Shown here: positions 15,031 to 52,557 of the stretch, piece after piece
Numbering within the stretch: position 1 is the first letter of the stretch
Layout: every line of letters starts with the position of its first letter
Source of the DNA: an uncultured Ignavibacteria bacterium
GTDB taxonomy: Bacteria; Zixibacteria; MSB-5A5; SM1-73
Assembly (NCBI GenBank): GCA_964580215.1
Contig: CAZOJT010000001.1
Location: forward strand, 126,475 to 190,474
Length of the DNA: 64,000 nt
Direction of reading: 5' to 3'
Translations under genes and position numbers: made by a program
The notes under the pieces: model-generated
Told to the model about the DNA's origin: nothing
Seen by the model: only the letters and a program-made list of their open reading frames with translations
The model's database searches: none

Positions 15031-15326
15031 AAGGTTAGGACAGGAATTCATCCCCAAGGACGAACTCTGTCCCTATCCTATGGATCCTGCGGACATAAAA
15101 CTTTTCCACAAAATGACTCCACACTCCAGTGTTTCCTCTGATGTTTCCATAGTTTGGGCGAAGCAGAGTGTCTATCACAAGCCGATGAAAGAAAGTAATA
15201 CAACCAAATCAAGATTTAAAGATCACTATTAGATCATTTTGCTTGACTTTTGGTATGTTTTTGGTTTCTTAATCTCAACTGAAAATTTAAAACTCAATAA
15301 CCTTTATCTTTTAGAGTGTTATACAT

Positions 15327-18216: not shown

Positions 18217-18390
18217 TCGAAAAACTACAAAAAGGTCCTTTATGTCATTCTGTCCGAATTTGGATCCATAGGAAACGAAGTGAAGAATCTAATAAATTCA
18301 ATATGTTTCAAATGCGTATGCACTCATACGAGTTTGAGATTCTTCCCCCGCCAAAGGCGGGGTCAGAATGACATATCATGACAGGCTCAT
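18217..18390. mobile_element. MITE-like element A, copy 2 (with a 20-bp internal insertion gtccgaatttggatccatagg)
   Basis: Alignable by eye to 14877-15030 over about 150 bp, with the same TIRs and the same hairpin cccccgccaaaggcgggg. Confidence 0.55.
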
Positions 18391-34600: not shown

Positions 34601-34983
34601 TTCTTCCAAGTATCTTGAGGTCAGGCTAAGGATAGCTACATGAATCGAGTCTCCAGATTCAAATCCTATGGATCCATAGGGTAAACAACTACAAAAGAAA
34701 TCATGGTGCAGATTTGCCTTTTAACCTGCTGTTCTTAAGAGTTCGTATGCTCTTCCAACCTACCTTACTTTCCCATGAAGGCAGACTAAGCGAGACAACT
34801 AACTTCCTGGAAATCAAGGCCTTATTCCATCAATCACTACAAAATCGCATAATTTGATCAGTCGTTAATATTCCCAATTAGAAAATTTCCACATTTTAAC
34901 TATCGGTGGAATAAATAGTTAGAGGGCGAGCTTGTTTCAGCCATCTCTCTGAAAAAAATATTGTGATTGCGATATGTTTTTTG

Positions 34984-35132: not shown

Positions 35133-37379
35133 ATGCTGAAGGTTGCCAACAATAAATTGATTATTGGAAAAGAAGAGTATTATCCATTTTCAGCTGAGAT
35201 GCACTATTTCCGGGTTAGCAAGAGATACTGGTCAATTTGCTTTGAGCGAATCAGAAAGGCGGGATTTAGAATCATCTCCACCCGTGTACCTTGGAATCTG
35301 CATGAGTCGGTCATAGGTGACTTCGATTTCATGGGAATCACAGATCATACCAAAGATTTGGTTGTTTTCTTGGAACTGGCAAGAGAGTTTGGACTCAAGG
35401 TGATTCTTCATCCCGGTCCCTTTATAGATTCTGATTGGAAAAATGGAGGGTATCCTGACTTTTTATATAACAGTCCTGAGATTTTTGCAAAAGATCCCAA
35501 TGGCGAGCCGGTCAAAATATTCGCAGAATCCAAAATCGAATCAGCAGGAATGGATCACACAGGGACAGGGAAAGAGGGGGTCTTTTCGCCGCTTCATCCT
35601 CGGTTTTTAACTCACGTTAAAAGATACTTGGGCGCCCTTTCAGATACAATAAAAAACTACATCTACCCCAAAGGTCCGGTGATTTTGGTAAAGCTGGACA
35701 ACGGGCTCTTATCTTTCCGTCCTGACCAGTCGCCCGAAAACCTAAATCCGTTTAACTCAGACTACAACGAGCATCTGATCAACACCCTTTTCCCAGAATA
35801 TCTTAAGGGGAAATATGAGGATATTAAAAAGCTGAATAAGCTTTATGGAGAGAGGCATCGCGATTTCAAGGATGTGAAACCTCCTGCTGAGTTGAAGATA
35901 TCAAAGCCTCAGAATCTGATCAGGTATTTCGATTGGGTCGGCTTTAAGGAAAAAATTTCCGCTGATTTTGTTTTAAAGCTGAAGGAACTATATCTATCTT
36001 TTGACGTCTCCCCTCTGTTTTCCACTGATCTTTTCTTATCTAAGGATTTTTCCTTGCCTTTCAACTGGAAGGCTTCAGAGTCTGATGATCTTTTTTGTGG
36101 AATAAGCCTGCAATGGCAGAATGATTATGTGGAGCTGGCTCGTCATCTGCGATATTTTACCACCTGTTGTAAATTTCCCTGGTCTTCGGAATTCACTGTG
36201 GGATCGCGGGCAGACTCACCCAAGGAGGCTGAAAAGTATTTTCCAATGTCTCCAAGAAAAGTTAAGCTCCTTCTGACCACCGCTTTGGCGTCTGGGATAA
36301 GGGGGTTCAATCATTACATGTTTGTAGAAAGAGATCACTGGTATGATGCACCTTTAGCCAATGACGGAACCATCCGCCCCAGTTTTGATCTGATTAAAAA
36401 ATTCAATGAGCTGATTGTCAGGATTCAACTGGAAAATCTGAAATCTTTTCCCCAGGTGGGATTGGCAAATTACCGCCCCTATCTCTGGTTTGATTATCTG
36501 TCCCATGAACAGTTGACTAAAATGAGATCAGGAGGAAAACCCTCAGAGCCTTTTTCCTATCTGCCATTTTTGCTTTCTAAAACCCACAAGGGATTGAGTC
36601 AGGATTTGATCAACCTGAAGCTTGACCATGGAATGCCGGATCTATGGGTTGAAGAGAGTCTGGAGGACTTCCCGGTTCTTATGGTGCCTTGTGCCGAATT
36701 CATGGATGCGGAGACTCAACAGCTTCTGGTGAACTTGGCTAAGGCGGGAAAAACCTTGATCCTGTTTGGTCTTTTGCCCCGATTTGACCTGAATATGAAA
36801 CAGCGTAGGCTTCTCTCCGATTCTTTAAAACTACAGACTAAGGTTCAATCCTGCGTGGGCAAAGTGCAAACTTCTGATCAGGAAATCATCACTTTTCTTT
36901 ATGGATATATAAGGGGAGCTAAGAGGTCTCAAGTTCTGGCAAAATACCAGGATCGACCGGTGGGGGTGGTTTCAAAATTAGGCAAAGGACGTGTTTTTGT
37001 TTTCACCTTCGATATCTCCGCTCAACTTTCTCACCACAAGCTTTCCTTCCTGGAAGAAGTACTGGGCCGGGCAGGTGTCCAGAGCCAAATATATTGTGAT
37101 GCTCCAGAGGTAGATTTGGTGTTGCAAAAAGATGAGAAAAACACCATCCTCTATCTAATCAATCCTTCCGAGCAGAATTCCTCCATAAATGGAAAAGATC
37201 AAAGAAAGTTAGTACTGCAATTTGATCCCCGAAAGTTGGGAATAAAGGGGAAAAGACTCCGTTTGGTTGATCTTCTGGGAGATGAAGTCATAAAAACCTC
37301 GCCAGAGGAGTTGAAAACTGGACTCATTATAAATATCGCCCCACAAGATAGCCGGATGTATTTAATAGGAACAAGATAG
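35133..37379 (+). CDS. Glycoside hydrolase family 35-like beta-galactosidase
   Basis: The N-terminal catalytic barrel matches the GH35 pattern: YYPFSAEMHYFRV...RIRKAGFRIISTRVPWNLHESVIGDFDF...LKVILHPGPFIDSDWKNGGYPDFL. Confidence 0.7.
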   Translation: MLKVANNKLIIGKEEYYPFSAEMHYFRVSKRYWSICFERIRKAGFRIISTRVPWNLHESVIGDFDFMGITDHTKDLVVFLELAREFGLKVILHPGPFIDSDWKNGGYPDFLYNSPEIFAKDPNGEPVKIFAESKIESAGMDHTGTGKEGVFSPLHPRFLTHVKRYLGALSDTIKNYIYPKGPVILVKLDNGLLSFRPDQSPENLNPFNSDYNEHLINTLFPEYLKGKYEDIKKLNKLYGERHRDFKDVKPPAELKISKPQNLIRYFDWVGFKEKISADFVLKLKELYLSFDVSPLFSTDLFLSKDFSLPFNWKASESDDLFCGISLQWQNDYVELARHLRYFTTCCKFPWSSEFTVGSRADSPKEAEKYFPMSPRKVKLLLTTALASGIRGFNHYMFVERDHWYDAPLANDGTIRPSFDLIKKFNELIVRIQLENLKSFPQVGLANYRPYLWFDYLSHEQLTKMRSGGKPSEPFSYLPFLLSKTHKGLSQDLINLKLDHGMPDLWVEESLEDFPVLMVPCAEFMDAETQQLLVNLAKAGKTLILFGLLPRFDLNMKQRRLLSDSLKLQTKVQSCVGKVQTSDQEIITFLYGYIRGAKRSQVLAKYQDRPVGVVSKLGKGRVFVFTFDISAQLSHHKLSFLEEVLGRAGVQSQIYCDAPEVDLVLQKDEKNTILYLINPSEQNSSINGKDQRKLVLQFDPRKLGIKGKRLRLVDLLGDEVIKTSPEELKTGLIINIAPQDSRMYLIGTR

Positions 37380-37911
37380 AGTATCTCCTGCCTTACGAGT
37401 TCGAGAATAAACCTTCAAGTGATCAAATCCAGTTCTTTTCTTTTCTTATCTTTCGCATTCTGTAGGAGACTGTCCGAGAAATGCAAAAATCATGTTTTAG
37501 ATGCCCATATATTGCGGTATGAGATTGTAGTTGCCCAATTTATTGGGCTCGATAAATCGAGCAACTATATTCTCAGACACGCTCCTTAGAAAATCAAGGG
37601 CTCGAAGGAGATCTAATGAGCTGATAGATGATTATGATGCAAAAAAAGGATTCTTTACTCTAAGTATCTTGAATAAAGGAACTTGTCCAGAGGTATGAAC
37701 TGTATGGTTCATACCAGGGAAAGGGAGGGTAGCCGCAGGTCAGTTGACTCAAATGAGCTTCAGCCTGCGGGGTAGTAGTGCAAGAATGGGATAATTACTT
37801 TTTTGTCTCAATTCACTCTAAATGAGCAGAAGAACAAGAACTCGGCTTTGGATTTTCGTGTTTTTGGTGTTGTCGACCTTTATTGTCCATTGCCGGAAAG
37901 GAAAAAGAGAA

Positions 37912-38484
37912 AAGATGATGTATGAAGTAAAGAAAATCTGCGTGTATATCATCGGTGAAAAAGACTCAGTGCTTATGAAAGATCTGCCTTTTTACCTGGA
38001 GTCCACATTTCATCGGAACATAAAAGTGGATGAGTTGGAGATGAATCTGGATTTTGCTTATTATCCCAAAAGAAAACAATATTCTTCTTCAGCTATTTTA
38101 GATAGATTAAAAACGATGAAAAATAAAGAATGTGATCGTTTGCTGGCGATAGTGGATGTCGATCTTTATGTGCCGGAGTTGAATTTCGTGTTTGGAGAGG
38201 CAAATTTTCAAACAAAGGTGGCAGTGATCTCTTCTATCAGATTAAGACAGGAATAATACGATTTGTCCGCAGGATCTCAGTTGAGTCAAATGACCATAAG
38301 ACCTGAAAATAAACAGCTATTTCTGGAGAGGGTGACAAAGGAGGCGGTGCATGAACTGGGTCACACCTATGGTCTGCCACACTGTCCGGACCCAAAATGT
38401 GTGCTGCATTTTTCCAATAGCTTATGGGATACCGATTTTAAGTCCTATTCTTTCTGCGAGAATTGCAAGAGGAACTGGGGTTAA
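37912..38484 (+). pseudogene. amzA: Archaemetzincin (peptidase M54) gene interrupted by an in-frame TAA (38254-38256) within a repeat-like insertion
   Basis: The C-terminal part has the [24 protein letters not shown]...CENCK zinc signature, and the N-terminal part has ...GEANFQTKVAVISSIRLR. Both are in the same reading frame, separated by QE[17 protein letters not shown]. The inserted DNA (ccgcagg..cagttgagtcaaatga) resembles the repeat at 37735-37775. Confidence 0.55.
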
Positions 38485-38740
38485 AGGATAAATAACCTTT
38501 CAGTTTAAGGACAAACGGTAGATTTTTTAAGTTTTTGTGTTCCAGAGCCTTATATTAACAACCTGGTAATTCGTGGCTTGGAAAACATTTGCTACAGTCA
38601 TCCCAAGAATTTTGCAGATTTTTACGTATATTCTAATGTAGATGGAGAGGAAGTAGAGGCATATTTGGGTAAGATATTGTGTGACAATATGATATCATGT
38701 GAGCGGGGTTGCCCTGAAAAGGATTTTGAGGTAACTGGCC

Positions 38741-41889: not shown

Positions 41890-42126
41890 CTATATCATTT
41901 CTTCAGTCTGTTTCACCAAATCAGCCATATCATACATATATTTTCTTTTATTCTCCTCTTCGGCTTCCGGAACTGGCCGTCCCATCAAAGGGAAATCCTC
42001 CAATCCATCTATGGCTTCAATAATTTTTTCAATAAACCGGATTGCATAATATTCTGCGTCTCTGGCAATATAAGCTCGAATGCTCTCCAAATCTTGAATA
42101 GCCGGTTCAGTCCAATCAATCTTCAT
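41890..42126 (-). CDS. RelE/ParE-family toxin, C-terminally divergent or truncated (possibly inactive)
   Basis: The N-terminal 55 aa parallel the intact paralogue at 43009-43302 (IDWTEPAIQDLESIRAYIARD..EYYAIRFIEKI..FPLMGRPVPE). The tail lacks the conserved YRIIYR core. Confidence 0.5.
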   Translation of the reverse strand: MKIDWTEPAIQDLESIRAYIARDAEYYAIRFIEKIIEAIDGLEDFPLMGRPVPEAEEENKRKYMYDMADLVKQTEEMI

Positions 42127-42302
42127 TTCGAAAGAAATCTCTTCTTGACTTCGTCGTGAGAGATAATGTGACCTTCTTCTGCGGCTTTGATACCGGTTGC
42201 GATTTTTTTCTTAACGTAAAACTCATACATAATGTCATCCCACGTTACCTGATCGGGTAACCGGTCAATCAATTTTTTTGCCTCTTCTTTGACGCTACTC
42301 AT
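42123..42302 (-). CDS. Antitoxin of the RelE/ParE module (59 aa, below the ORF-track size cutoff)
   Basis: Reverse-strand translation gives MSSVKEEAKKLIDRLPDQVTWDDIMYEFYVKKKIATGIKAAEEGHIISHDEVKKRFLSK. This is homologous to the ORFs at 43287-43475 and 43594-43782. Its stop overlaps the toxin ATG (ATGA). Confidence 0.55.
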   Translation of the reverse strand: MSSVKEEAKKLIDRLPDQVTWDDIMYEFYVKKKIATGIKAAEEGHIISHDEVKKRFLSK

Positions 42303-42607
42303 ATTTTATGATCTCCTTTGACGTTTTCTATGAAACATCGGGAGTGGGAATTCCTAATGCATGTTCGCCTGAGCATTGGCATTTTCTTCGGGACGAGCCC
42401 TAATGCCAATGCATCCAAGAACGCTCTGCGGGCACACTTGATGACCGAAGAAGATCTGATTTAACTGGGTTGATCTGGAATGTTTGTTCATCTTGTGTGG
42501 CAAGGATGTTCTCAGTTCCGAATTCTGCAGAAATACGGCAGGATATGGTCTGAAATTAAGCCATCCGTGCAAGGATTCATCCTGAGGGAAAGATTCCTCA
42601 GAGGGTA

Positions 42608-42856
42608 TCAATAAACGCTGACTACTTTTTTGCTCTTCCCCTTCGGTTCAAATTTGACCACTCCGTCCATCAGGGCAAAAAGGGTATCATCCTTTCCCTT
42701 GCCCACGTTCAGGCCCGGGTGTATTTTGGTTCCCCTCTGTCGCACCAGAATGGTGCCAGCTAAAATTGCCTCACCCGCAAATCTTTTCACACCCAGCCTC
42801 TGCCCGTGCGAATCCCTTCCGTTGCGTGAACTTCCTACTCCCTTTTTATGTGCCAT
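42608..42856 (-). CDS. rpmA: 50S ribosomal protein L27
   Basis: [29 protein letters not shown]...[24 protein letters not shown] is the canonical L27 sequence. No rplU lies adjacent. Confidence 0.95.
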
Positions 42857-43008
42857 TTTTCATCATCCTTTCTGTGTCTACTTGACCAAACAGATAAACG
42901 TTGTTTGATGAACATCTTTTTGAGTCATTTTACCCTTTATGGTTAAAAGAAGTGCGATAGTATTCGGATGTTCAATTTTTAACCTATTGTTTGGCGAAGT
43001 CATGACCG

Positions 43009-43302
43009 CTAAAAAATATCCTTCAATGTTTTTGCCCCATGACAGATAGCAACAATTTCGACAATACTTTCTTTAAGCCTGTAAACTATCCGATAGTTCT
43101 GATAAATCTTTTCCCTTAAATTCTCATCACCATATTCTGGAACAATACGTCCTACTTTGGGAAATCGAGGTATATCTTCAACCATAGTAATTATCTTCCT
43201 AGCAAAAAGACGAGCATAATATTCAGAATCTTTGGCGACGTAGTTGCATATCTCTTCAAGATTGGAAAGAGCGCGGGGAGACCACTTTATTTGTTGAGCC
43301 AT
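43009..43302 (-). CDS. RelE/ParE-family type II toxin (intact)
   Basis: 97 aa. IKWSPRALSNLEEI..YVAKDS..YARLF...IPRFPKVGRIVPEYGDENLREKIYQNYRIVYRLKESIVEIVAICHGA. Confidence 0.8.
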   Translation of the reverse strand: MAQQIKWSPRALSNLEEICNYVAKDSEYYARLFARKIITMVEDIPRFPKVGRIVPEYGDENLREKIYQNYRIVYRLKESIVEIVAICHGAKTLKDIF

Positions 43303-43475
43303 TTTGACATTCGCTTTTCTACTTCCTCATGAGAAATTCCTTTGCCTTCATCCAAATCTTTCAATCCTGCGTCCACTTGAAGCCTAAAATACAACTCCGC
43401 CATTATCTCCTCCACAGAAACATCATCAGGAAGATTCTGAATCATTTGAATAACTTGCTCTTTTACTCCTGTCAT
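43287..43475 (-). CDS. Cognate antitoxin (62 aa, addiction-module-component type)
   Basis: Overlaps the toxin start by 16 nt. Conserved NLPDDVSVEEIMAELYFRLQVDAGLKDLDEGKGISHEEVEKRMSKWL. Confidence 0.65.
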   Translation of the reverse strand: MTGVKEQVIQMIQNLPDDVSVEEIMAELYFRLQVDAGLKDLDEGKGISHEEVEKRMSKWLNK

Positions 43476-43593
43476 TTAATCACCCTCCGAACAACCCAAT
43501 ATACCGCCAAAAGATCTGCTTTAACAACTGTAATAATTTTGCCAAATGTTCAAAGCTAAAAAAGTGCGATAAGATTTGGGATGTCAATCTTTA

Positions 43594-43782
43594 TTACTTT
43601 TCGAGCCATTTTGCCATCCGCTTTTCGACCTCTTCCTGTGTATAAACCCGTCCGTCTTCTGCATCCTTCAAACCACGCTCAATCTTTTGAAGGACATAAA
43701 GATGGTACTGAATATCTTCCAGAGAACAGTCTTCTGGCAGACGGTTGAGTAGATTGGTTACTTCTTGTTTGGGTGTGTGCAT
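43594..43782 (-). CDS. Orphan antitoxin paralogue; only a 16-codon toxin remnant (about 43545-43596) follows
   Basis: MHTPKQEVTNLLNRLPEDCSLEDIQYHLYVLQKIERGLKDAEDGRVYTQEEVEKRMAKWLEK. Downstream, ATGGCTCGAAAAGTAATAAAGATTGACATCCCAAATCTTATCGCACTTTTTTAG translates to MARKVIKIDIPNLIALF-stop. The flank resembles the 3' flank of the intact toxin. Confidence 0.55.
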   Translation of the reverse strand: MHTPKQEVTNLLNRLPEDCSLEDIQYHLYVLQKIERGLKDAEDGRVYTQEEVEKRMAKWLEK

Positions 43783-52013: not shown

Positions 52014-52557
52014 AAGTGAACTGAAAAGTTTCGCCATTTTTTTCAATTTACCCCACAGGCTGAAGCTACGTTGCACACCCGGGTACTCCATTAGCAAAAA
52101 TATGGCGAAAAATTGTTGATTTTTGGAAGAAAATGGCTATGTTAAGGGCAATTTGTTGCCCGACAGAACTTTTAGGTCACAGAAGTTTTCGGACATAAGA
52201 TAAGGAGGTAACTACTTGGAAATTCATTTTGGAACTGGCATAAGAGCTCCGAACCCCACCCTGTGGAGCGGGATAGAATGTATCCTGAGTTTAATAGTGT
52301 TTAAAGGTCAAACATCAATTTTAAGGAGAAAGCGTCAAGATGAATTCATAAAAAGGTTGAGATGTTCGGTTAACGTTGGCGAAGTCCGAATTTGGATCCA
52401 TAGGACTGGTATCGATGCTGGAGGCTCGAAGTTGGAAGCTGAAACACCTAATTGGACAAAGAAATCTTCGAGTGTCGAGCTTCGAAAGACAAACTTCGTT
52501 ACGAATCTCGACAACAACATCCGAGCATCGAGCCTTATCAAAGGAGGTGATTAAAAT

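What the first reader, a model, noticed from the sequence alone, without database searches (positions are those of the whole stretch)
37912..38484. Archaemetzincin gene with a single in-frame TAA inside a short repeat-derived insertion
Both halves of a peptidase M54 (archaemetzincin) gene lie in the same frame (37822-38256 and 38263-38484), separated only by TAA at 38254-38256. The catalytic [12 protein letters not shown]...C..C zinc site is downstream of the stop. Compared with AmzA homologues there are about 11-16 extra residues at exactly this point (QE[17 protein letters not shown]). The inserted DNA (tccgcaggatctcagttgagtcaaatgacc) resembles an intergenic palindromic repeat at 37735-37775 (ccgcaggtcagttgactcaaatgagcttcagcctgcgg). 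The lesion looks like a repeat insertion that introduced a stop. Alternatively it is a sequencing error or a readthrough site.
Basis: partly seen in the sequence, partly recalled or inferred. Interest (0 to 1): 0.5.

Follow-up and report, generated by a model that had tools for sequence, protein, structure and literature searches.

The report
Nonsense-mutated protease gene with mini-repeat insert
A zinc-protease gene in a Zixibacteria-type genome is cut short by an ordinary point mutation; three codons after that stop it carries an older in-frame 36-base insert made of two nested members of a family of very small palindromic repeats that are scattered through these genomes and also sit inside at least one other gene (PTS IID).

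Summary
An archaemetzincin (M54) gene at 37822-38484 has one in-frame TAA at 38254-38256, and a nearby insert resembles the hairpin at 37729-37770.

The TAA is not in the insert. It replaces a conserved Phe/Tyr codon (TTC in four orthologues, TAC in the closest one), three codons upstream.

The insert is exactly 36 nt (38266-38301, [12 protein letters not shown]). It sits after GGTTTG without target duplication, and it is stop-free in this frame. The closest intact orthologue keeps an 18-nt form of it.

The insert has two nested parts:
- an 18-nt "shell" (TCCGCAGGA|TCCATAAGA);
- an 18-nt palindromic "core" (C+TCAGTTGAGTCAAATGA).

Both parts are dispersed repeats in Zixibacteria MAGs and metagenomes. 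The core also sits in the loops of GTAG-tagged REP-like hairpins with covarying stems and in 9-mer arrays. Shells and cores nest in each other. A PTS IID gene shows the same 0/18/36-nt states.

TAA is the commonest stop codon in the window, so recoding is unlikely. The gene also has a 3' one-base deletion and a Met-turn Met>Leu change.

Verdict: a recently inactivated gene, or a nonsense allele, carrying an older tolerated mini-repeat insertion. The repeat family is the more interesting part. No transposase was found.

The parts
37822..38256 (+). N-terminal part of the archaemetzincin gene (signal/anchor-like N-terminus plus N-terminal domain), ending at the premature TAA
   Evidence: ORF. Pfam M54 profile positions 61-127. 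The N-terminal extension MSRRTR...FIVHC is shared by P0001, P0002 and P0005, and partially by further orthologues.
38254..38256 (+). Premature stop TAA at the conserved Phe/Tyr codon of the family motif (F/Y)YGL
   Evidence: This column is TTC in L160-L163, TAC in L003 and TAA in the window. The same TAA is present in L001 and L002.
38257..38484 (+). C-terminal part of the gene in the same frame: active-site helix, [12 protein letters not shown], Cys4 site. The last codons are shifted.
   Evidence: M54 profile 135-190, E 3.5e-22. Fingerprint taken from PMC3427221.
38266..38301 (+). 36-nt in-frame insert ([12 protein letters not shown]): shell TCCGCAGGAT / CCATAAGA with the nested core
   Evidence: Absent from L160-L163, which read GGTTTG|CCTGA, GGTTTG|CTTCA or GGTCTG|CTTGA. 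There is no target duplication. It is 100% identical over 33 nt to L016 and over 30 nt to L018.
38276..38293 (+). 18-nt core unit (C + 17-nt palindrome TCAGTTGAGTCAAATGA), nested at GGAT^CC of the shell
   Evidence: This is exactly the segment missing from L003. The same 18-nt difference is seen in PTS IID genes (L164 versus L166 and L036) and between 23-nt and 41-nt GTAG hairpins.
38260..38262 (+). GAT (Asp) at a nearly invariant Gly of the FYGL motif
38404..38406 (+). CTG (Leu) at the Met of the CXM fingerprint (the Met-turn methionine)
   Evidence: Met invariant among 26 homologues. Fingerprint from PMC3427221.
38474..38475 (+). One-base deletion relative to all orthologues. It shifts the last codons (KRNWG* instead of KKKLGLKDR-like).
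   Evidence: Alignments.
37729..37770 (+). GTAG-tagged REP-like hairpin carrying the same core in its loop: GTAG-C-CGCAGG-[TCAGTTGACTCAAATGA]-GCTTCAG-CCTGCG-G
   Evidence: 48 such contexts in other loci. Covarying stem. Present at the same place in L160, L161 and L162. A 31-nt deletion removes it in L003 and L163.
37527..37565 (+). Second, unrelated GTAG-tagged hairpin element (GTAG-TTGCCCAATTTATTGGGCTCGATAAATCGAGCAAC) in the same intergenic region
   Evidence: Inverted repeat I1. RNA fold -31.4 kcal/mol, z -6.1. Matches in L004, L025 and L017.
18253..18273 (+). Core-less shell copy TCCGAATTTGGATCCATAGGA
52385..52405 (+). Core-less shell copy TCCGAATTTGGATCCATAGGA
15076..15093 (-). Core-less shell copy TCCGCAGGATCCATAGGA, next to further GGAC/GTCC mini-hairpins
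34664..34681 (.). Symmetric shell-like copy TCCTATGGATCCATAGGG

Best explanation
The gene is an archaemetzincin orthologue that went through two separate events.

1. In an ancestor shared with the closest orthologue, a tiny non-coding repeat landed in frame after GGTTTG. The site is the loop just before the active-site helix. The repeat is either the 18-nt shell or the 36-nt shell+core composite. Its length is a multiple of three and it has no stop in this frame, so it was tolerated as 6 or 12 extra loop residues.

2. Later, and only in the window's lineage, the conserved Phe/Tyr codon three codons upstream mutated to TAA (TTC > TAC > TAA). The catalytic half is now untranslated. A one-base deletion in the 3' tail and substitutions at two near-invariant residues (Gly>Asp, Met-turn Met>Leu) fit a gene that is no longer maintained. 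The inactivation is recent.

The insert belongs to a family of very small nested palindromic repeats of Zixibacteria:
- an 18-nt core (a 17-nt palindrome plus 1 nt), found in GTAG-tagged REP-like hairpin loops, in shells and in 9-mer arrays;
- shells, found alone, carrying a core, or nested inside cores.

Inferred, not shown: these elements move, or are gained and lost, as single-strand hairpins. They would be handled by a trans-acting enzyme of the REP/RAYT or IS200/IS605 kind, or by hairpin-directed replication slippage or template switching.
For: Gene level:
- The closest hits are Zixibacteria archaemetzincins.
- The codon column reads TTC, TAC and TAA, and the indel is a precise 36 nt after GGTTTG with no duplication.
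- P0001 is intact and keeps SAGSIR, the shell only.
- The solved AmzA structures 2x7m and 4axq lack the whole segment.
- In the AF2 model of P0001 the insert lies in coil 146-157, where pLDDT is about 73, just before helix 158-176.
- TAA ends 17 of 40 long ORFs in the window.
- The window also has a 1-nt 3' deletion, G>D and M>L.
- Two further assemblies carry the identical TAA.
- The window lineage has no excess of unique nonsynonymous changes (7 N: 6 S, similar to the orthologues), which fits recent inactivation.

Family level:
- The genome scan gave 35 hits. 26 are in Zixibacteria or Zixibacteria-like MAGs. 9 are in unrelated taxa; their flanks lack the family's structured pattern and most lie inside long ORFs.
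- The metagenome scan gave more than 119 loci.
- Of 137 distinct contexts, 48 are GTAG-REP loops, 9 a related hairpin, 19 shells and 17 9-mer arrays.
- In the outer stem, 93% of cells are paired and 3 of 6 pairs show double changes.
- 23-nt core-less and 41-nt core-bearing GTAG hairpins differ by the same 18 nt. There are 17 core-less shells in 1.05 Mb, three of them in the window; GGATCCATAGGA occurs four times in the window in all.
- Shells lie nested in cores at TCAKTTG^A in L020, L071, L046, L126, L087, L143 and L053.
- PTS IID genes show empty, 18-nt and 36-nt states at one site.
Against: - No read data were available. The three concordant assemblies may rest on the same reads, so a minority allele or a systematic error is not excluded.
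- The lack of excess substitutions means that 'pseudogene' rests on the stop, the tail frameshift and two residue changes.
- An in-frame TTG at 38263, 10 nt after AGGA, could allow reinitiation. A two-piece protein is therefore not excluded.
- Mobility is inferred from presence/absence between orthologues and from nesting. No transposase was found.
- Copy numbers per MAG are low: 3-6 exact cores.
- The core search pattern fixed 17 of 19 bases, so conservation of the core is partly by construction.
- Whether the window gained the core or L003 lost it is unresolved.
Confidence: 0.78

Rival explanations
1. The TAA is a sequencing or assembly error, or a minority allele. In the population the gene is intact, with Tyr or Phe at this codon.
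For: - The window looks like a metagenome-derived contig.
- TAC>TAA is a single-base change.
- The window lineage shows no excess of other substitutions.
Against: - Three assemblies made by different pipelines are identical here.
- The only near-identical database protein is the 112-aa N-terminal fragment P0012.
- The same allele also carries a 3' one-base deletion and changes at two near-invariant residues.
- The site is not in a homopolymer.
Confidence: 0.1
2. The gene is still functional. Either the stop is read through, or termination-reinitiation at TTG 38263 yields two polypeptides (144 aa and 73 aa) that assemble across a permissive loop.
For: - The break lies in a variable loop that tolerates 6-12 extra residues.
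- An in-frame TTG lies 7 nt after the stop, with AGGA 10 nt upstream of it.
- There is no excess of nonsynonymous changes.
Against: - TAA is the most used stop in the window.
- The next base is T, which I recall as a strong termination context in E. coli (own knowledge).
- The RNA downstream of the stop folds no better than shuffled sequence (-9.8 kcal/mol, z -1.1).
- The Met-turn Met is replaced and the tail is frameshifted.
- No other same-frame split gene was confirmed in the window. The other single-stop junctions listed were only spot-checked: some are off-frame or join adjacent genes.
Confidence: 0.07
3. The insert was copied locally from the hairpin 537 nt upstream by template switching or gene conversion. 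It is not a member of a genome-wide element family.
For: - The two copies are close together and share CCGCAGG plus the 17-nt palindrome.
- L003 lacks the core at both places.
Against: - The insert is 100% identical over 30-33 nt to shell+core units in other genomes (L016, L018), but only 83% identical over 24 nt to the local hairpin.
- It lacks the GTAG tag and the GCTTCAG loop.
- The same unit sits in PTS IID genes, inside long ORFs in L106 and L140/L085, and nested in other elements.
- The upstream hairpin is old, because it is present in L160-L162.
Confidence: 0.05
4. Order of events. Only the 18-nt shell entered the gene in the common ancestor. The 18-nt core then inserted into its GGAT^CC in the window lineage. 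On this view the core is itself a mobile unit, and was not lost from L003.
For: - Core-less shells are common: 17 in 1.05 Mb and three in the window.
- The core occurs in at least four unrelated hosts, always as the same 18-nt unit flanked by GG...G.
- L003 has the shell only.
Against: - In PTS IID, the shell-only L164 appears closest to the full L166 (judged from shared flanks, with no tree built), and the full L036 lies outside them. That favours loss.
- L003 also lost 31 nt of the upstream hairpin, so it shows a tendency to delete hairpins.
- Palindromes are deletion-prone (general knowledge).
Confidence: 0.35

Closest known systems
GTAG-tagged repetitive extragenic palindromes (REPs) and their RAYT transposases (Di Nocera et al. 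2013, PMC3733652; Nunvar et al. 2010, PMC2817692)
   Same: The upstream element, and 48 related contexts, share these REP features:
- an unpaired GTAG at one end;
- a 6-bp stem with alternative complementary residues;
- a loop with a self-complementary inner part;
- an intergenic location.
Intragenic in-frame copies are also known for REPs.
   Different: - The in-gene unit has no GTAG or CGTC tag.
- The loop of the tagged hairpins is a separable 18-nt module that is also found in untagged hosts.
- Copy number per MAG appears low.
- No RAYT was found near the elements.
Small dispersed repeats (SDR) of heterocyst-forming cyanobacteria (Elhai et al. 2008, Genome Res 18:1484). The reference is cited in PMC3116915. 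Its content is recalled from my own knowledge because the paper is not held.
   Same: - Units of about 20 nt.
- Units nested inside one another.
- Units embedded in arrays of short tandem repeats (here the 9-mers ATCCGTTNA).
- Compensatory stem changes.
- Occurrence inside genes.
   Different: - A different phylum.
- Sequences not compared.
- Here two units (core and shell) are each other's host.
- Here the 0/18/36-nt states are seen at orthologous sites in two genes.
Rickettsia palindromic elements (RPE) in protein-coding genes. Ogata et al. 2000 is recalled from my own knowledge. RPEs are discussed in PMC3733652.
   Same: A palindromic repeat inserted in frame in a protein-coding gene and carried as extra residues in a loop, with the host ORF retained (P0001, P0121).
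   Different: RPE-1 elements are about 100-150 bp (own knowledge) and occur in Rickettsia. Here the units are 18-36 nt and there is no relationship by sequence.
IS200/IS605-type single-strand transposition (reviewed in PMC6006769, seen but not read; details from own knowledge)
   Same: - Insertion without target duplication.
- Hairpin-forming element.
- Insertion 3' of a short preferred sequence. This is TTG^ in the gene and TCAKTTG^ inside cores. 7 of 17 shell-only copies follow TG.
   Different: No transposase gene was identified. The element is far smaller than known minimal derivatives. The target preference is only partial.
Archaemetzincin AmzA (Peptidase M54; PDB 2x7m, 3zvs, 4axq; Graef et al. 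2012, PMC3427221)
   Same: HEXXHXXGXXHC, the four Cys residues and the overall domain order.
   Different: Bacterial, with an N-terminal hydrophobic extension and a longer loop before the active-site helix. In this copy there is a premature stop, Leu in place of the Met-turn Met, and a shifted tail.

Membership tests
Archaemetzincin / Peptidase M54 | Significant match to Pfam PF07998 | tested here: met
   The C half scores 79.8 bits against a cutoff of 24.4. The N half scores 18.6 bits, below the cutoff on its own, but is collinear with the profile. The closest homologues are annotated archaemetzincin.
Archaemetzincin / Peptidase M54 | Fingerprint HEXXHXXGXXHCX4CXMX17CXXC (PMC3427221) | tested here: not met
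   His, Glu, Gly and all four Cys residues are present. The Met is Leu (38404-38406), while Met is invariant in 26 homologues.
Archaemetzincin / Peptidase M54 | Uninterrupted reading frame giving one polypeptide with both domains | tested here: not met
   TAA at 38254-38256 and a 1-nt deletion at 38474/38475.
GTAG-tagged REP | Unpaired terminal GTAG next to a stem-loop | tested here: met
   Met for the upstream element 37729-37770 and for 48 contexts elsewhere. Not met for the in-gene insert 38266-38301, which has no GTAG or CGTC tag on either strand.
GTAG-tagged REP | Stem of 5-13 bp with sub-families that differ by complementary changes | tested here: met
   6-bp stem with 93% of cells paired. 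Pairs 9-44 (CG 28 / GC 18), 11-42 (AU 26 / CG 26) and 12-41 show double changes. 0 of 500 shuffles reach the observed covariation score. The changes fall into about 2-3 sub-families, so there are few independent events.
GTAG-tagged REP | Family of tens to thousands of copies per genome | tested here: inconclusive
   Only 1-6 exact-core hits per MAG and 2 in the 64-kb window. The MAGs are incomplete and the pattern was strict.
GTAG-tagged REP | Association with a RAYT (Y1 transposase) gene | tested here: inconclusive
   tblastn found nothing in 1.04 Mb around the elements, using IS608 TnpA and E. coli RAYT sequences recalled from memory. Whole genomes were not searched.
SDR-like very small mobile repeats | Units of about 20 nt nested within one another and within short tandem repeats | tested here: met
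   The core lies in the shell at GGAT^CC. The shell lies in the core at TCAKTTG^A. There is a triple nest in L087. Cores are flanked by ATCCGTTNA arrays.
SDR-like very small mobile repeats | Presence/absence differences at orthologous sites (evidence of movement) | tested here: met
   amzA shows 0, 18 and 36 nt. PTS IID shows 0, 18 and 36 nt. The upstream hairpin is present or carries a 31-nt deletion. The direction, gain or loss, is unresolved.
IS200/IS605-like single-strand transposition | No target-site duplication, with insertion 3' of a specific short target | tested here: inconclusive
   No duplication at the amzA, PTS IID or nested sites. The 5' flank is TTG in amzA, L106, L018 and all nested copies, but not in L016, L101, L133 or L036.
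IS200/IS605-like single-strand transposition | Y1 HUH transposase acting on the hairpins | not testable with these tools
   This needs whole genomes and biochemistry.

The most novel reading that the evidence does not exclude
The 18-nt unit (the 17-nt palindrome TCAKTTGASTCAAMTGA plus one base) is itself a mobile DNA. It enters and leaves hairpin hosts precisely: GTAG-REP loops, shells and 9-mer arrays, including copies inside coding sequences. When it is absent the shell reads GGATCC. The shell in turn targets the centre of the core. Together they would form a pair of mutually nesting elements that are among the smallest mobile DNAs known, driven by an unidentified enzyme in Zixibacteria.
Probability: 0.25. 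Interest if true: 0.75.

Novelty: new member of a known kind. Interest (0 to 1): 0.45.

Why it matters
For the gene itself, little is at stake. It is a recently broken copy, or a nonsense allele, of a protease whose substrates are unknown.

The surrounding repeat biology is the more useful part.
- Zixibacteria carry an undescribed set of very small nested palindromic repeats, according to a library search and to my knowledge.
- These repeats can sit in frame inside genes.
- They show clean three-state polymorphisms (0/18/36 nt) at orthologous sites in two unrelated genes.
- Such natural before-and-after pairs are rare for REP-like and SDR-like elements, whose way of spreading is still unsettled.

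Practical points for annotation:
- 6- or 12-residue segments such as SAGS(QLSQMT)IR or SYG(HLTQLK)SWG in Zixibacteria proteins are repeat-derived, not family features.
- A stop codon next to such an insert need not have been caused by it.

Tried and rejected
- Rfam at gathering thresholds on the whole window gave no match. ARAGORN found no tRNA or tmRNA.
- The promoter and terminator consensus scan of 37300-38700 found nothing above chance and no terminator.
- Recoding of TAA was rejected on stop-codon usage. No other same-frame split gene was confirmed; the other single-stop junctions were only spot-checked.
- A stimulatory RNA structure after the stop was rejected. The in-gene hairpin folds no better than shuffles as RNA or as DNA.
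- The Y1 transposase/RAYT search by tblastn gave only chance-level hits. The best one, in L091, lies off-frame inside an unrelated 339-aa ORF.
- Clustering of 915 ORFs from the element-bearing loci gave no recurrent transposase-like family. An Xer-like recombinase lies near GTAG hairpins in four loci, but its position is inconsistent.
- The test for relaxed selection by lineage-specific changes showed no excess in the window.
- A third intragenic case (L106, M14-like protein) could not be verified cleanly, because the insert lies in a variable linker.
- L007 looked like the orthologous locus in SM23_73_3, but it is a different locus that shares a larger repeat.
- Viral contigs gave only two hits, which I did not examine.
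- The Elhai et al. 2008 paper could not be read.
- I considered and dropped CRISPR repeats, DGR template/variable repeats, integron attC, dif/Xer sites, invertase hix-like sites and uptake sequences. Spacing, symmetry, copy number or substitution pattern did not fit.

Full report
**1. The observation**

- The window has an ATG ORF at 37822-38256 (144 aa). The same frame continues open from 38257 to 38484. The only interruption is TAA at 38254-38256.
- Pfam Peptidase_M54 matches both parts collinearly. The N part covers profile positions 61-127 at residues 80-137. The C part covers 135-190 at residues 16-72.
- About 23 residues therefore stand where the profile has 8.
- The zinc-binding [12 protein letters not shown] and the cysteines lie after the stop.
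- The 19-mer TCAGTTGASTCAAATGASC occurs exactly at 37740 and 38277, against 0.03 expected matches at up to 3 mismatches. Both copies are preceded by CCGCAGG.

**2. Where the stop and the insert really are**

- The closest database proteins are archaemetzincins of Zixibacteria.
- I aligned the window with the DNA of six related loci: L003, L160, L161, L162, L163, and the identical contigs L001/L002.
- Four orthologues read TTC TAT GGT TTG | CCT GAG or close variants.
- The window reads TAA TAC GAT TTG | 36 nt | CCT GAA.
- L003, which encodes the intact closest orthologue P0001, reads TAC TAC GGT GTG | 18 nt | CCT GAA.
- The insert is therefore exactly 38266-38301: TCCGCAGGATC TCAGTTGAGTCAAATGA CCATAAGA, encoding [12 protein letters not shown]. 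It lies after GGTTTG, with no target duplication and no stop in this frame.
- The TAA stands at the conserved Phe/Tyr codon of the family motif (F/Y)YGL, three codons upstream. It is one substitution away from the TAC of L003.
- The repeat did not bring the stop.

**3. State of the gene**

- TAA is the most frequent stop among 40 long ORFs of the window (17 TAA, 14 TAG, 9 TGA). The other same-frame single-stop junctions were only spot-checked: some are off-frame or join adjacent genes, and none was confirmed as a split gene. Recoding is therefore unlikely.
- The RNA after the stop folds no better than shuffled sequence.
- Two other assemblies (JGI, Logan) are identical over about 1 kb, including the TAA.
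- The only near-identical protein in the large database is the 112-aa N-terminal fragment P0012.
- The window also has three further changes: a one-base deletion at 38474/5 that shifts the last codons, Asp for a nearly invariant Gly (38260), and Leu for the Met of the CXM fingerprint (38404). The last one is the structurally important Met-turn residue (PMC3427221).
- Lineage-specific nonsynonymous changes are not in excess (7 N: 6 S, as in the orthologues). Any inactivation is therefore recent.
- One orthologue, L163/P0008, has its own +2 frameshift in the C-terminal domain.

**4. Why the insert was tolerated**

- The solved archaeal AmzA proteins lack the whole segment QEYYGVSAGSI.
- In an AlphaFold model of P0001 (mean pLDDT 86), the insert lies in a coil at residues 146-157 with lower confidence. 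This is directly before the active-site helix at 158-176.
- Other homologues carry an unrelated 9-residue insert a few residues further on.
- The site is a variable loop.

**5. What the insert is**

An exact scan for the 19-mer gave these results.
- In one genome per species it gave 35 hits. 18 are in MAGs named Zixibacteria. 8 are in MAGs that carry the same structured flanks (seven labelled Ignavibacteria, one unclassified). 9 are in unrelated taxa; their flanks lack the family's structured pattern and most lie inside long ORFs, as expected for chance hits.

Across 137 distinct contexts:
- 48 are GTAG-C-stem6-[core]-GCTTYAG-stem6', the type at 37729-37770;
- 9 are a related hairpin, GGAGTTAAGG...GCGTAAGCCTTTTA;
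- 19 are the shell type of the gene insert;
- 17 lie in arrays of ATCCGTTNA 9-mers.

Further properties of the family:
- The outer stem of the GTAG type is paired in 93% of cells. Three of six pairs change on both sides (CGCAGG/CCTGCG, GGAAGG/CCTTCC, GGAGGG/CCCTCC). These are few independent events, but they go in the expected direction.
- These features match the published definition of GTAG-tagged REPs (PMC3733652).
- The gene insert has no GTAG tag. It matches shell+core units of other genomes perfectly over 30-33 nt. It is therefore not a copy of the neighbouring hairpin.

**6. Two nested modules**

- Core-less versions exist. GTAGCCGCAGGCTTCAGCCTGCG (23 nt, 4 copies) stands against the 41-nt form (45 copies).
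- Shells without a core (TCCGCAGGATCCATAGGA or TCCGAATTTGGATCCATAGGA) occur 17 times in 1.05 Mb. Three shells are in the window, and a fourth symmetric shell-like copy is seen with GGATCCATAGGA.
- The difference is always the same 18 nt: the 17-nt palindrome plus one base.
- Conversely, shells with or without a core lie inside cores, always between TCAKTTG and A and without duplication. Nesting goes up to three levels (L020, L071, L046, L126, L087, L143, L053).
- The amzA insert also follows TTG.

**7. A second gene shows the same series**

- In the PTS IID proteins of Zixibacteria, most orthologues are 247 aa.
- P0121 and P0122 carry 12 extra residues: [12 protein letters not shown] and [12 protein letters not shown].
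- P0125 carries 6 (SYG..SCG).
- At the DNA level these are the empty site, the 36-nt unit in the opposite orientation, and the shell alone with GGATCC at the junction.
- Open reading frames of 978 aa (L106, the same peptide [12 protein letters not shown] after GATTTG) and 1220 aa (L140) also contain the unit. The L106 case could not be verified cleanly against homologues.

**8. History at this locus**

- The upstream GTAG hairpin is present at the same place in L160, L161 (degenerate) and L162, and is therefore old.
- L003 and L163 share a 31-nt deletion that keeps GTAGC and the 3' arm.
- The L003 gene is a mosaic. Its 5' part is like L163 and its 3' part is like the window. This explains why L163 has an empty site.
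- It cannot be decided here whether the window gained the core or L003 lost it. The PTS IID alleles favour loss, but only from shared flanks, since no tree was built.

**9. Mechanism**

Shown:
- precise, duplication-free, in-frame gain or loss of 18- and 36-nt units at orthologous sites;
- nesting at fixed positions;
- hairpin covariation.

Inferred: handling as single-strand hairpins, either by a trans-acting enzyme of the REP/RAYT or IS200/IS605 kind or by hairpin-directed slippage or template switching.

No transposase was found near the elements. The test was weak, because the query sequences were recalled from memory and only flanking DNA was searched.

**10. Verdict**

- The finding is real but ordinary at the gene level. 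It is a recent nonsense mutation, together with a tail frameshift, in a gene that already carried a tolerated mini-repeat insertion.
- The repeat family is a new example of REP-like or SDR-like very small elements in a phylum where, as far as a library search shows, none has been described.
- Its three-state polymorphisms make it worth a dedicated look.

Noticed in passing
window 37517-37578: A second GTAG-tagged hairpin element (GTAG at 37527-37530, then TTGCCCAATTTATTGGGCTCGATAAATCGAGCAAC). It is very stable (RNA -31.4 kcal/mol, z -6.1). Partial matches occur in L004 (35 nt, 97%), L025 and L017. It appears to be another repeat family of these genomes.
   Followed up: partly
window 15076-15093, 18253-18273, 34664-34681, 52385-52405: Core-less 'shell' repeats (TCCGCAGGATCCATAGGA, TCCGAATTTGGATCCATAGGA, and a symmetric TCCTATGGATCCATAGGG). 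GGATCCATAGGA occurs four times exactly, against about 0.5 expected even with one mismatch allowed. The copy at 15076 lies next to further GGAC.../...GTCC mini-hairpins.
   Followed up: partly
L163 (JGI Ga0114930_10016210), amzA orthologue P0008: Two extra T in a T-run (GCATTTTTTTCC) shift the frame inside the Cys4 region. This is a second, independent lesion in this gene family, or an assembly error.
   Followed up: no
L003 (Logan SRR30965928), amzA orthologue P0001: The gene is a mosaic. Its 5' two-thirds resemble L163 and its 3' third resembles the window. This suggests homologous recombination between related Zixibacteria lineages.
   Followed up: partly
L102, L141, L152, L155, L040, L043 and others: Cores of the 'C' type are embedded in arrays of 9-mers (ATCCGTTNA / TNAACGGAT). 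The same arrays adjoin GGAAGG-type GTAG hairpins. The arrangement is mosaic and BIME-like.
   Followed up: no
L007 7579 (-), L127 3922, L134 447 (-), L146 6777: GTAG hairpins with the same stem (CGCAGG/CCTGCG) carry a different, longer loop insert made of TCCNNNGGA-like mini-hairpins (CTTCCTTCGGACTGAGTCC...GACGAATGTCAG). The loop is a general landing site.
   Followed up: no
L047 3770-4771, L148 11140-12039, L093 82-1020, L120 11720-12643: Xer-like tyrosine recombinase genes (35-39% identical to each other). In L047, L148 and L093 they lie within 100-400 nt of GTAG/core hairpins, with inconsistent relative position. The distance in L120 was not checked.
   Followed up: partly
window 41890-43782 (- strand): A stretch without long ORFs holds small genes. 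Judged by eye from the translations: an L27-like ribosomal protein gene (42608-42856), a toxin-like ORF (43009-43302), two small antitoxin-like ORFs (43287-43475, 43594-43782), and a shorter toxin-like ORF (41890-42126).
   Followed up: no
window 37692-37715 and L007: The hairpin GGTATGAAC-TGTATG-GTTCATACC, plus GGGAAAGGG, precedes the GTAG element. A similar left flank (ACGGTTCATACCAAAAGGGGAAAGGGTGGGTAGC) occurs twice in tandem in L007. The GTAG hairpin can therefore be part of a larger repeat unit.
   Followed up: partly
viral contigs L158, L159: Two IMG/VR contigs contain the exact 19-mer. Their context was not examined.
   Followed up: no
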